DNA of 29,017 nt, taken from NCBI GenBank assembly GCA_947587565.1, contig CANPYA010000001.1, positions 1 to 29,017 of the forward strand. The letters run 5' to 3'. The DNA is from an uncultured Bacilli bacterium (GTDB lineage: Bacteria > Bacillota_I > Bacilli_A > RF39 > UBA660). The translations under genes were made by a program, and so were the position numbers. Each line of letters begins with the position of its first letter. Within the stretch, counting starts at the first letter, position 1. Of the stretch, positions 26,541-29,017 are shown piece after piece. The notes beneath the pieces are model-generated. The model did not search any database, was not told the origin of the DNA, and saw nothing but the letters and a program-made list of their open reading frames with translations.

Positions 26541-26561
26541 AAGGCCATTTGGCCTTTTTTT
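26541..26561 (+). terminator. Intrinsic terminator after cdaR
   Basis: AAGGCC-ATTT-GGCCTT followed by T run. Confidence 0.75.
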
Positions 26562-26562
26562 G

Positions 26563-26590
26563 TTGACTTTCGGGGGGGGTAGTTTATACT
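26563..26590 (+). promoter_or_regulatory. sigma-A-type promoter with a G8 homopolymer in the spacer
   Basis: TTGACT (26563-26568), 16-nt spacer containing G8 (26572-26579), TATACT (26585-26590). Confidence 0.75.
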
Positions 26591-26617
26591 AGAAACATAG
26601 GATAGAAGGTATGTCTT

Positions 26618-28903
26618 ATGTTGAGAAAAAATAAAAATATACTAATATATTTAAGTATAGGAATAGTACTAATAGTTAGTATGTTTTTTGTGTTTAACAA
26701 AAAGGAAGAATATAAAGAATTACCGAGAGTAAAATTAAAAGATAGTATAAATACTAGTGGACTTGCTATAATGGTAGAAAGTGATTATAAAGCCGAAAAA
26801 TATACCCAATGGGAAAATAAAGAATTTCCAACGGATGGCTATACCTTAAATAGAATTAAAAGTGGATGTGTCGATAAGAATGGTAATAATATAGATGCTT
26901 TAACTTATAATGAAAGTGATAAAACAATAAGTATAAAAACTAAACAAAGCGTTTATTGTTATCTTTATTATGATAGTTTATTTAAAGGACAAGGAACAGA
27001 ACAAGAGCCATATGAAATAAATTATATTGAAGATTTGGTTAGACTTTCTAATTCAGTAAATAAAGACAAAAATAATTATAATAGTAAATATTTCATATTG
27101 AAAAGAAATTTAGATTTTAATGAAAATGACAGTTATATGAAATATAATGATACTGGTTTTGGTGATATTAATGGAGTAAATAATATTGAAGGAATAAAAG
27201 ATGAACTAACTAATCAAGAAGGAAGTGGCTTTACATCAATTGGCAATTTAACTATTCATTTTCAAGGTAACATTGATGGTAACAATAAAAGATTAGATAA
27301 TATTTATGAAGAAAATAAGAATGATTCAACTAGATATTTAGGTTTATTTGGAACAGTTGAAAATAGTAAAATAACAAATTTGACAATAAGTGGTAATTTA
27401 GATTCCTTAGTAGCAACAAGAATTGGTGGGTTAATCGGTTTTTCATATGGTACTACAACAATTGAAAGTTGTGTTAATGAAGTAAATGCTAATAGTGCAT
27501 TTGGTACTAATAGTGTTGGGGGCTTAGTAGGAGATGGCGAAAATAATTTAACGATAAAAAATAGTGTCAATAAAGGTCAATTGTCTGGTGGAAATAATAC
27601 GGGAGGATTAGTTGGTTATATTGGTAGTAGTGCATTATTAACAATAGAAGATAGTCATAACGAGGGATTAATAACCAATGAAGTTGGAAAAAGAGTTGGA
27701 GGATTATTAGGAAGAGATAATGCTGAAACATCTAAAACAATTATAAAGAATTCTTATAATGCTGGAGATATTACTAATTCAAATTTATATGAAGGTGGAT
27801 TAGTTGGCTTTATTTATGGAACCATAGAAATAGAAAATAGTCATAATGAAGGAGTAATAAGTAATACTTTAGGAACAAATATAGGTGGTTTAATAGGTCG
27901 TGGTTATGATACTTCAAATATAACTATAAAGAATTCTTATAATAATAATGACATAGTTATTTCTCCTAATTCTGAAAATCGATTTTGGCTTGGTGGTTTA
28001 ATAGCTATGGCGTTGGGAAAAATAAATATAAACAATTCATATAATACAGGAAATATTATAAATGAAAAAACGAAATATTTAACTAGGCATGTTTTAATCA
28101 TAGGAGGTTTAATTGGAAATTTAGATTCTTATGATAATTCAATATCATATATTAACAATTCATATAATATTGGAAATATAACTAATGGCGATTTAATGGG
28201 TGGCTTAGTAGCATATAATCATAATAATCACACATTAATTATAGATAGGTCCTATAATACAGGAAATATTACAAGTAATTTAGATTATACAGAAATATCA
28301 AATGACACAGGAACTGTACTATCTGGTATAATAGGTATAAATCAATCATATTCTACGGGTATAATATTAAATAGTTATAATACAGGAATGCTAGATACTA
28401 GTAATTTAAAGCAAACAAATATTGATAATAATAATATAAGAAGAGCTGCTGGTATTACCACTGATAATAGAGGAGGAAATAGTTTAGTTATAAATTCTTA
28501 TAATTTAGGAAAGGTAGAGAATCAAGGAATTTCAGCAGGCATTTATATTGGAGAATTAACTGGTGATTTTGGAGGATATTTAAAAGAATATAATATTTAT
28601 AATGTTGGTAATATTACTGGAATCAGTAAATATGTTTTAAATTATGTAAATCATGATTATACTATTAATAATGCCTATTATTTAAATAATATTGATGGAA
28701 ACATTATGGAAGAGACAACATCGATGTCCGAAGATGATATGAAAAATACAATATTTCTTAATACTTTAAATCAAAATGTAGATGAACTTAATAATGTAGG
28801 ACTTGAAACAACTGATGAAAATTTAAAAGGTTATGAATTAAATAAATGGAAACAGGGTGATAATGGATATCCAACTTTGGATTATAATTTAGAAACTGAA
28901 TAG
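26618..28903 (+). CDS. Large surface-exposed GLUG-motif/beta-helix repeat protein with N-terminal membrane anchor
   Basis: N-terminal TM; FKGQGTEQEPYEI and FQGNIDGNNKRL motifs typical of GLUG-type proteins; ~12 repeats of GGL(I/V)G...NSYNxGxI; ends W..G.NGYPTL. Confidence 0.8.
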   Translation: MLRKNKNILIYLSIGIVLIVSMFFVFNKKEEYKELPRVKLKDSINTSGLAIMVESDYKAEKYTQWENKEFPTDGYTLNRIKSGCVDKNGNNIDALTYNESDKTISIKTKQSVYCYLYYDSLFKGQGTEQEPYEINYIEDLVRLSNSVNKDKNNYNSKYFILKRNLDFNENDSYMKYNDTGFGDINGVNNIEGIKDELTNQEGSGFTSIGNLTIHFQGNIDGNNKRLDNIYEENKNDSTRYLGLFGTVENSKITNLTISGNLDSLVATRIGGLIGFSYGTTTIESCVNEVNANSAFGTNSVGGLVGDGENNLTIKNSVNKGQLSGGNNTGGLVGYIGSSALLTIEDSHNEGLITNEVGKRVGGLLGRDNAETSKTIIKNSYNAGDITNSNLYEGGLVGFIYGTIEIENSHNEGVISNTLGTNIGGLIGRGYDTSNITIKNSYNNNDIVISPNSENRFWLGGLIAMALGKININNSYNTGNIINEKTKYLTRHVLIIGGLIGNLDSYDNSISYINNSYNIGNITNGDLMGGLVAYNHNNHTLIIDRSYNTGNITSNLDYTEISNDTGTVLSGIIGINQSYSTGIILNSYNTGMLDTSNLKQTNIDNNNIRRAAGITTDNRGGNSLVINSYNLGKVENQGISAGIYIGELTGDFGGYLKEYNIYNVGNITGISKYVLNYVNHDYTINNAYYLNNIDGNIMEETTSMSEDDMKNTIFLNTLNQNVDELNNVGLETTDENLKGYELNKWKQGDNGYPTLDYNLETE

Positions 28904-28993: not shown

Positions 28994-29017
28994 TTGACAG
29001 AAATCACAAAATTTGCT
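28994..29017 (+). promoter_or_regulatory. Probable promoter cut by the window edge
   Basis: TTGACA (28994-28999), 17 nt ending TGC, then T at 29017 where a -10 would begin. Confidence 0.4.

What the first reader, a model, noticed from the sequence alone, without database searches (positions are those of the whole stretch)
26563..26620. Poly-G tract in the promoter spacer: candidate phase-variable switch for a surface protein
Seen: the only long G run I noticed in this AT-rich window (G8, 26572-26579) lies exactly between TTGACT and TATACT, giving a 16-nt spacer; G9 would give the optimal 17 nt and G7 only 15 nt. It is insulated by the cdaR terminator and drives a 761-aa surface protein. Known: homopolymers in -35/-10 spacers tune expression by slipped-strand mispairing (Neisseria porA, Mycoplasma hyorhinis vlp). 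Inference: a contingency locus in a probably uncultured gut lineage.
Basis: partly seen in the sequence, partly recalled or inferred. Interest (0 to 1): 0.75.

Follow-up and report, generated by a model that had tools for sequence, protein, structure and literature searches.

The report
Poly-G promoter switch, 41-copy family
The run of eight G's sits inside a near-perfect promoter, one of 41 such promoters in this small genome of an uncultured rabbit-gut bacterium. Nearly all of them stand before surface-protein genes, so this is probably a slippage-driven on/off or volume switch of a known kind, used here on an unusually large scale.

Summary
TTGACT (26563-26568), G8 (26572-26579) and TATACT (26585-26590) give a 16-nt spacer just after the cdaR terminator. 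A 761-aa membrane-anchored beta-helix protein follows.

The locus is one member of a family. In this 1.19-Mb, 27% GC assembly, G/C runs number about 210 at length 5, 13 at length 6, 3 at length 7, 34 at length 8 and 6 at length 9. Of the 43 runs of 7 or more, 41 lie between a consensus -35 and -10. They stand ahead of three unrelated surface-protein families and a glf gene.

Poly-G promoters mostly have 16-nt spacers (28 of 35). Other consensus promoters in the same genome use 17-18 nt (32 of 41; Fisher p = 6e-11).

Eight of 18 sampled congeners carry 2-35 such promoters, with G7-G10 mixed behind identical flanks. Between sister species the tracts are never interrupted, but 4 of 9 differ by one G.

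Length variation at this locus could not be tested. Only low-depth contigs from one sample were available, and both spanning contigs show G8.

The mechanism is known from porA, tp0126 and vlp. The lineage and the scale are new. This scan has flagged similar poly-G promoter families in other uncultured gut bacteria.

The parts
26541..26562 (+). Intrinsic terminator of the cdaA-cdaR (ybbR) operon: 6-bp G+C-rich hairpin plus T run. It insulates the promoter from upstream transcription.
   Evidence: terminator scan; sequence.
26563..26568 (+). -35 hexamer TTGACT.
   Evidence: Homology among the paralogous cassettes starts at this hexamer.
26569..26584 (+). 16-nt spacer (TTC + G8 + TAGTT).
   Evidence: Other consensus promoters of this genome have 17-18 nt spacers.
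26572..26579 (+). G8 homopolymer, the proposed slippage-prone element.
   Evidence: Contigs from two runs of one sample also show G8.
26585..26590 (+). -10 hexamer TATACT.
26594..26622 (+). Leader hairpin at the predicted 5' end of the mRNA: 11-bp stem, with the Shine-Dalgarno GAAGG (26605-26609) in the loop and the AUG (26618-26620) in the 3' arm. It is conserved in most cassettes.
   Evidence: dG -7.8 to -13.2 kcal/mol, z -4 to -5; conservation. Its function is inferred.
26618..28903 (+). Gene for a 761-aa surface protein: N-terminal membrane helix (residues 6-26), disordered linker, small beta domain (49-120), long GLUG-type right-handed beta-helix (about 218-690).
   Evidence: Pfam GLUG; AlphaFold2 pLDDT 90; best fold matches are IgA1-protease beta-helix domains; 1626 homologues, all unnamed.
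28994..29017 (+). TTGACA plus 17 nt plus T, at the contig end. It matches the promoter that directly follows cdaR and precedes OLE RNA in related species, so it marks the right-hand edge of the inserted cassette and gene.

Best explanation
The G8 tract is the mutable element of a promoter-spacer switch. The -35 and -10 hexamers are near consensus, so spacer length is the feature that limits promoter strength. With G8 the spacer is 16 nt, one short of the 17-18 nt that the organism's other strong promoters use. Slipped-strand mispairing during replication would add a G (17 nt, full activity) or remove one (15 nt, little or none). This would turn transcription of the 761-aa membrane-anchored beta-helix protein up or down, heritably and reversibly. 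The same module, running from the -35 hexamer through the G tract, -10, leader hairpin and signal-anchor codons, precedes about 40 genes in this genome. Each gene could therefore switch independently and give a combinatorial, bet-hedging surface coat. Shown here: the anatomy, the family, the off-optimum spacing, tract retention with +/-1 changes between species, and mixed G8/G9 behind identical flanks. Inferred: the slippage rate, the effect on transcription, the transcription start near 26597, and which tract length is the ON state.
For: G/C runs spike at length 8: 34 observed against about 0.1 expected from the decay 210, 13, 3. Of 43 runs of 7 or more, 41 lie between TTGAC[A/T] or TTGATT and TATAAT or TATACT. 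Two cassette layouts place the tract differently yet keep the same total spacer: TTGACT-G8-8 nt and TTGACA-3 nt-G8-5 nt. Among strict TTGAC[AT]/TATAAT promoters, spacers of poly-G promoters are 16 nt in 28, 17 in 3, 15 in 2, and 19 and 20 in one each. Non-poly-G promoters have 17 nt in 17, 18 in 15, 16 in 3 and 15 in none; Fisher p = 5.6e-11. G004 shows the same picture: non-poly-G promoters peak at 17 nt. Congeners without poly-G tracts have the same protein family behind ordinary promoters with 17-nt spacers. Eight of 18 sampled congeners, plus a goat-rectum genome reached separately, carry 2-35 such promoters with G7-G10. G004 has 12 G8 and 13 G9 behind identical flanks, and four tandem genes with G10, G9, G9, G8. 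In G000 against sister genome G031, of 9 aligned tracts 5 are equal, 4 differ by one G and none is interrupted. Of 26 A/T runs of 7 or more in the same alignments, 8 have decayed. The downstream genes encode predicted surface proteins: GLUG beta-helix, ALK/LTK glycine-rich and DUF285/LRR families, plus UDP-galactopyranose mutase. The mechanism is established for poly-G in the tp0126 and porA spacers, where 17 nt is optimal (PMC7864442).
Against: No heterogeneity was seen at this locus, but the test had almost no power. Two Logan contigs from one rabbit sample, probably the source sample, both show G8 at about 4x depth. The length distribution peaks sharply at G8 in several species; for example, about 30 of 35 listed tracts in G018 are G8. 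A fixed functional length would also produce this. In other species G8/G9 give 15/16 nt and almost no locus reaches 17 nt, so the ON length is uncertain. MutS and MutL are present, so slippage is not boosted by loss of mismatch repair. There are no RNA data, so the transcription start and promoter use are unverified.
Confidence: 0.65

Rival explanations
1. The tract is a fixed promoter element rather than a switch. Under this reading G8 is a conserved spacer feature, such as a contact for a dedicated regulator or for RNA polymerase, or a DNA-structure element that sets a constitutive or regulated strength. The G7-G10 differences among loci and species would then be slow evolutionary drift.
For: G8 is the mode in every species examined, even though the flanks differ and the spacer comes to 15 nt in some species and 16 nt in others. 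The tract is never interrupted between sister species, which shows selection for the tract itself. Only G8 was seen at this locus. Mismatch repair is intact.
Against: G8 and G9 occur in roughly equal numbers behind identical flanks within one genome (G004). Tandem paralogues carry G10, G9, G9 and G8. Four of 9 orthologous tracts differ by exactly one G. The tract sits at different positions within the spacer, which argues against a fixed protein contact. An uninterrupted G run of 8 or more is intrinsically slippage-prone in every system tested (PMC7864442; PMC6321876).
Confidence: 0.22
2. The cassette is mainly a recombination handle. The conserved block from the -35 hexamer to the signal-anchor codons would serve as 5' homology for gene conversion or for moving surface-protein genes, with the G tract incidental or acting as a break-prone hot spot.
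For: Homology among paralogues starts exactly at the -35 hexamer. Between G000 and G031 the upstream flanks are orthologous, but homology ends about 60 nt before the tract and a different family member follows. The window's cassette and gene are absent after cdaR in G031 and four other relatives. Promoter subtypes are shuffled relative to the genes: C4:10558 and C95:2400 have genes 98% identical but different -35 contexts.
Against: This reading does not explain the off-by-one spacer statistics or the selective retention of an uninterrupted G run. It is compatible with the switch model rather than an alternative to it. No flanking inverted repeats or recombinase-type sites were found.
Confidence: 0.1
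3. The tract is a sequencing or assembly artefact, such as a poly-G artefact of two-colour chemistry or a homopolymer miscall.
For: None specific. The assembly is a fragmented metagenome-assembled genome of 143 contigs, and many contig ends fall inside cassettes.
Against: The tract is embedded in a conserved promoter context on both strands at 41 loci. It recurs in independent assemblies from rabbit and goat studies. It is reproduced in contigs from separate runs.
Confidence: 0.01

Closest known systems
Neisseria meningitidis porA promoter (poly-G between -35 and -10) and Treponema pallidum tp0126 (poly-G in the spacer)
   Same: A G homopolymer inside the -35/-10 spacer of a surface-protein gene, where one-base length changes move the spacer toward or away from the 17-nt optimum (PMC7864442).
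   Different: Those are single loci, or a handful, in cultured or well-studied pathogens, and variation and its effect on transcription have been shown experimentally. Here there are 41 promoters in one 1.19-Mb genome of an uncultured gut commensal-type bacterium, and neither variation nor effect has been shown.
Mycoplasma hyorhinis Vlp system (from my own knowledge of Yogev et al. 1991 and Citti & Wise 1995; Rosengarten & Wise 1991 is cited in PMC11868660)
   Same: A multigene family of surface proteins in a small, low-GC genome of the Bacilli/Mollicutes branch. Every member shares a conserved promoter, leader and signal region, and the spacer holds a homopolymer, which allows independent, combinatorial switching.
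   Different: Vlp uses poly-A, has 3-7 clustered lipoprotein genes, and also varies in size through coding repeats. Here the tract is poly-G and about 40 genes are dispersed around the genome. They belong to three unrelated families with uncleaved membrane anchors or SipW-type signals (no lipobox), and a glycan gene (glf) is included.
Campylobacter jejuni poly-G phasome
   Same: Dozens of G/C tracts of 8 or more per small genome, controlling surface structures. The median is 20 tracts per C. jejuni genome (PMC6321876).
   Different: In Campylobacter about 80% of tracts are intragenic and act by frameshift, and mismatch repair is lacking (the latter from my own knowledge). Here 41 of 43 tracts are in promoter spacers, and MutS and MutL are present.
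Poly-G promoter families noted earlier in this scan in other uncultured gut bacteria (e1-1166271, e1-4478073, e1-4878803)
   Same: G7-G10 tracts in the -35/-10 spacers of paralogous surface-protein genes.
   Different: Those are unchecked AI notes on other DNA, and no sequence overlap with this window was found. They report 3 to about 9 copies, against 41 here.

Membership tests
Promoter-spacer homopolymer phase variation (porA / tp0126 / vlp type) | Uninterrupted homopolymer of about 7 or more bases lying between the -35 and -10 hexamers | tested here: met
   G8 at 26572-26579 lies between TTGACT and TATACT. The same holds at 41 loci.
Promoter-spacer homopolymer phase variation (porA / tp0126 / vlp type) | One-base length changes move the spacer across the optimum used by the organism's RNA polymerase | tested here: met
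   Non-poly-G consensus promoters have 17 nt (17 cases) or 18 nt (15), 16 nt in 3 and 15 nt in none. Poly-G promoters have 16 nt in 28, 17 in 3 and 15 in 2 (Fisher p = 5.6e-11). This is indirect: it rests on the genomic spacing preference, with no activity data.
Promoter-spacer homopolymer phase variation (porA / tp0126 / vlp type) | Tract length is polymorphic within a strain or population at high frequency | tested here: inconclusive
   At this locus only G8 was seen, in two contig sets from one sample at about 4x depth. No raw reads or other samples were available. Indirect support: G7-G10 among paralogues behind identical flanks, and 4 of 9 orthologous tracts differ by one G.
Promoter-spacer homopolymer phase variation (porA / tp0126 / vlp type) | Tract length changes transcription, and the transcription start lies just downstream of the -10 | not testable with these tools
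   No RNA runs hold this sequence. This needs 5'-end mapping and reporter assays.
Promoter-spacer homopolymer phase variation (porA / tp0126 / vlp type) | The controlled gene encodes a surface-exposed or surface-modifying product | tested here: met
   The predicted product has a membrane helix at residues 6-26, a linker and a GLUG beta-helix (pLDDT 90), with fold matches to IgA1-protease beta-helix domains. The other cassettes drive glycine-rich and DUF285/LRR proteins and Glf. All of this is prediction only.
Mycoplasma Vlp-type variable multigene family | All members share a conserved promoter, 5' leader and signal-peptide block | tested here: met
   Homology among paralogues begins at the -35 hexamer.
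Mycoplasma Vlp-type variable multigene family | Products are lipoproteins (lipobox cysteine) with tandem-repeat size variation | tested here: not met
   The N-termini have no lipobox. They carry an uncleaved hydrophobic anchor or a SipW-type signal. No coding tandem repeats were examined. The system works like Vlp but is not a member of that family.
Invertible-promoter (inverton) phase variation | The promoter is flanked by inverted repeats recognised by a recombinase | tested here: not met
   Only weak AT-rich inverted matches (72-87% complementary, arms 51-2427 nt apart) were found, and none brackets the promoter.

The most novel reading that the evidence does not exclude
A subclade of an uncultured, genome-reduced gut Bacilli genus may run the largest promoter-located phasome yet seen. 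About 40 independent poly-G spacer switches would cover about 5% of a 1.2-Mb genome. One portable promoter, leader and anchor module would be grafted onto three unrelated surface-protein families and a galactofuranose gene. Most copies would be parked one G from the optimal spacing despite intact mismatch repair, and a leader hairpin would add a second layer of control. This would be a Mycoplasma-like variable surface coat that evolved independently in commensal gut bacteria.
Probability: 0.45. Interest if true: 0.7.

Novelty: new member of a known kind. Interest (0 to 1): 0.55.

Why it matters
Phase variation through promoter homopolymers is textbook biology for a few pathogens. Its extent in the uncultured majority of gut bacteria is barely charted. 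In this case roughly 5% of a minimal genome appears to be devoted to individually switchable surface proteins. That would imply strong, fluctuating selection from host immunity, phages or attachment niches on a commensal-type lineage. There is also a practical point for metagenomics: consensus assemblies hide such switches and break at their repeated cassettes. Per-locus G-tract counts in raw reads would give a direct read-out of which surface genes are ON in a given animal.

Tried and rejected
- **Read-level test.** Only Logan contigs were available, not raw reads. One rabbit sample shows G8 in two runs at about 4x depth; a third run has no contig across the tract; the fourth is a relative. 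This says nothing about minority alleles.
- **Other samples of the same locus.** The 761-aa and CdaR proteins are not on record elsewhere. CdaA is found only on the sister genome's contig, which lacks the cassette.
- **Family members seen in several assemblies.** Look-ups were collapsed to one place each, so tract lengths could not be compared. One of the three (L051) has a TTGACC-T-G7-8 nt-TATAAT promoter.
- **JGI metagenome scans with two cassette patterns.** The first gave no hit. The second gave one unrelated contig, L052, with similar G8 and G9 promoters and no homology to this genome.
- **Invertible promoter.** No flanking inverted repeats were found.
- **Known RNA family for the leader.** There was no Rfam match.
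- **Loss of mismatch repair as the cause of instability.** Rejected, because MutS and MutL are present.
- **Near-identical duplicate loci within the assembly, as strain pairs.** None reached 93% identity or more across a tract.
- **Earlier notes of this scan.** Searches by sequence or place found nothing that overlaps this DNA.

Full report
**Observation.** The sequence reads TTGACT (26563-26568), TTC, G8 (26572-26579), TAGTT, TATACT (26585-26590), which gives a 16-nt spacer. The promoter scan lists this pair with 10 of 12 consensus matches. It also finds a terminator hairpin at 26541-26556 with a T run, directly upstream. The upstream genes are cdaA (DAC domain) and a YbbR/CdaR gene. Downstream lies a 761-aa ORF, 26618-28903. 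The G8 is the only G or C run of 6 or more in the window. The promoter match alone is not above chance in this AT-rich DNA: 11 sites were found against 14.2 expected.

**Genome-wide context.** The window is contig C1 of a 1.19-Mb assembly with 143 contigs, 27% GC and 92% completeness.
- G/C runs number about 210 at length 5, 13 at length 6 and 3 at length 7, then 34 at length 8 and 6 at length 9. This is a spike of more than two orders of magnitude over the decay trend.
- Of the 43 runs of 7 or more, 41 sit between TTGAC[A/T] (or TTGATT) and TATAAT/TATACT.
- Two layouts occur: TTGACT-G8-8 nt-TATAAT and TTGACA-ATC-G8-5 nt-TATAAT. The window's copy follows the second layout, with TTGACT-TTC. The tract therefore sits at different places while the total spacer stays the same.
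- The two exceptions are a G8 inside a RhuM-like gene fragment and a G7 in a ribosome-binding region.
- Many contigs end inside cassettes, so the true number is probably higher.

**What the promoters drive.**
- Downstream ORFs fall into three N-terminal families. One is the window's family, with an uncleaved hydrophobic anchor followed by ELPKVKLK. The second begins MRLKYRKILITILL. The third carries a SipW/TasA-type signal.
- Pfam finds GLUG in the window's protein. It finds the ALK/LTK glycine-rich domain in the second family and DUF285 plus LRR in the third. One cassette (C28) drives UDP-galactopyranose mutase.
- AlphaFold2 on 53 homologues gives pLDDT 90: a membrane helix at residues 6-26, a disordered linker, a small beta domain and a long beta-helix. 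The best PDB matches are the beta-helix parts of IgA1 proteases, and no protease domain is present.
- The family has 1626 database homologues, all unnamed. Some homologues in other taxa carry prepilin-type N-termini.
- Of about 49 family genes with readable upstream DNA, 37 have a poly-G promoter. Another copy (C76) has its tract cut by the contig end. The rest have ordinary promoters or other upstream arrangements without a G tract.
- ORFs behind poly-G promoters make up about 5% of the assembly.

**Spacing test.**
- Among strict TTGAC[AT]-N-TATAAT promoters in this genome, those without poly-G have spacers of 17 nt (17 cases) or 18 nt (15). Only 3 have 16 nt and none has 15 nt.
- Those with poly-G have 16 nt (28), 17 (3), 15 (2), and 19 and 20 (one each). 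Fisher's exact test for 16 nt or less against 17 nt or more gives p = 5.6e-11.
- Poly-G promoters therefore sit, in the consensus, one base short of the spacing that this organism's polymerase evidently prefers.
- Congener G004 shows the same pattern. Its non-poly-G promoters peak at 17 nt. Its poly-G class 1 gives 15 or 16 nt. A second class, with the tract abutting the -10, gives 18-20 nt.
- Congeners that lack poly-G tracts have the same protein family behind ordinary promoters with 17-nt spacers.

**Evidence on mutability.**
- A narrow pattern search found 2-35 cassettes in 8 of 18 sampled species of the genus and none in 12 other families. A goat-rectum genome carries 26.
- Within single genomes, flanks are identical while the tract varies. 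G004 has 12 G8 and 13 G9. The tracts listed for G018 range from G7 to G10. Four tandem genes in G004 carry G10, G9, G9 and G8, and two copies have interrupted tracts.
- Sister genome G031 is about 92-96% identical to this genome in flanking DNA. Of 9 aligned tracts, 5 are equal, 4 differ by exactly one G and none is interrupted. Of 26 A/T runs of 7 or more in the same alignments, 8 have decayed.
- The tract is therefore preserved as an uninterrupted run while its length shifts by single bases, which is the expected signature of a contingency locus.
- Direct evidence is lacking. Only Logan contigs of one rabbit sample cover the locus, at about 4x depth. The two contigs that span the tract both show G8. 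Other routes to independent samples failed.
- MutS and MutL are present.

**Mobility.**
- Homology among paralogues begins at the -35 hexamer.
- Between the sister genomes the upstream flanks are often orthologous, but the homology ends about 60 nt before the tract and a different family member follows.
- The window's cassette and gene are absent after cdaR in G031 and in four other relatives. In three of these (L012, L013, L014) cdaR's terminator is followed directly by a promoter and an RNA; L015 has an extra hairpin between them. In L012 this RNA scores as OLE RNA. The window's last 24 bases match that promoter.
- The locus is therefore an insertion of promoter, gene and terminator into an intergenic region.
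- No inverted repeats bracket the promoter.

**Leader.** The predicted 5' end of the mRNA folds into an 11-bp hairpin (26594-26622). It shows GAAGG in the loop and holds the AUG in the stem (z about -4 to -5). The hairpin is conserved in most cassettes. A second leader class has a 14-bp hairpin followed by a U run. These may stabilise the mRNA or damp translation; that is inference. Rfam has no match for the leader.

**Comparison and verdict.**
- The mechanism matches poly-G spacer switches in N. meningitidis porA and T. pallidum tp0126, where 17 nt is optimal (PMC7864442).
- The family organisation matches the M. hyorhinis Vlp system (from my own knowledge; reference list of PMC11868660).
- In scale it exceeds the median C. 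jejuni phasome of 20 tracts, which are mostly intragenic (PMC6321876).
- Literature searches found no description for uncultured gut Bacilli.
- Earlier notes of this scan report similar but smaller poly-G promoter families in other uncultured gut bacteria. I did not test those notes.
- I rate the switch reading at 0.65, a fixed-element reading at 0.22 and a recombination-handle reading at 0.1. The last is compatible with the switch.
- It is a new member of a known kind, notable for its scale.

Noticed in passing
L012:5498-5980; window 28994-29017: In related species cdaR is followed directly by OLE RNA (Rfam RF01071, 225 bits). The window ends in the matching promoter (TTGACA plus 17 nt). OLE itself was not found in this 92%-complete assembly. 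OLE RNA in a genome-reduced gut Bacilli genus may merit its own look.
   Followed up: partly
G000:C16:10392-10399 (L073:693-700, minus strand): The only intragenic G8 lies in a RhuM-like N-terminal fragment. With G8 the frame stops after ...KAIGGGTI; with G7 or G10 it would read on into the conserved ELFNTTRNNITMHINEIY stretch. This is either a frameshift-type switch or a decayed gene.
   Followed up: partly
G000:C28:7917-7924 (L071): A poly-G promoter (TTGATT-TC-G8-7 nt-TATAAT, spacer 17) drives UDP-galactopyranose mutase (Glf). The same switch type may therefore control a surface glycan (galactofuranose) as well as proteins.
   Followed up: partly
G000:C4:1558, C8:4525, C11:18130, C21:201, C54:657, C84:5301, C140:42: A second leader class follows these poly-G promoters. 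A 14-bp hairpin plus U run (dG -15 kcal/mol) starts right at the predicted transcription start, and about 60 nt more precede the start codon. It looks like an attenuator or a 5' stabiliser.
   Followed up: partly
G004:C9:10451-13783 and G004:C39:6768-8694: A different poly-G promoter layout has the tract abutting the -10 (TTGACA-10 nt-G8..G10-TATAAT, spacers 18-20). It precedes four tandem genes with G10, G9, G9 and G8. Two copies have tracts interrupted by an A, which may be locked states.
   Followed up: no
L061, L063, L066 (congeners G006 and G012): In species without poly-G tracts, promoters of the same surface-protein family carry conspicuous palindromes around the -35/-10 region, for example ACGTATA...TATACGT. 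This suggests repressor control where the poly-G species use slippage.
   Followed up: no
L052 (JGI contig Ga0256829_1011004): An unrelated metagenome contig carries TTGACT-G8-TAATATTT-TATAAT and TTGACT-G9-TAATAGT-TATAAT promoters before other genes and has no homology to this genome. The same promoter design may therefore occur in another lineage.
   Followed up: no
window 26611-26634: An out-of-frame ATG at 26611 in the leader hairpin opens a 7-codon mini-ORF that overlaps the real start. In most paralogues the equivalent upstream ATG or GTG is in frame and adds MCLM- to the protein.
   Followed up: no
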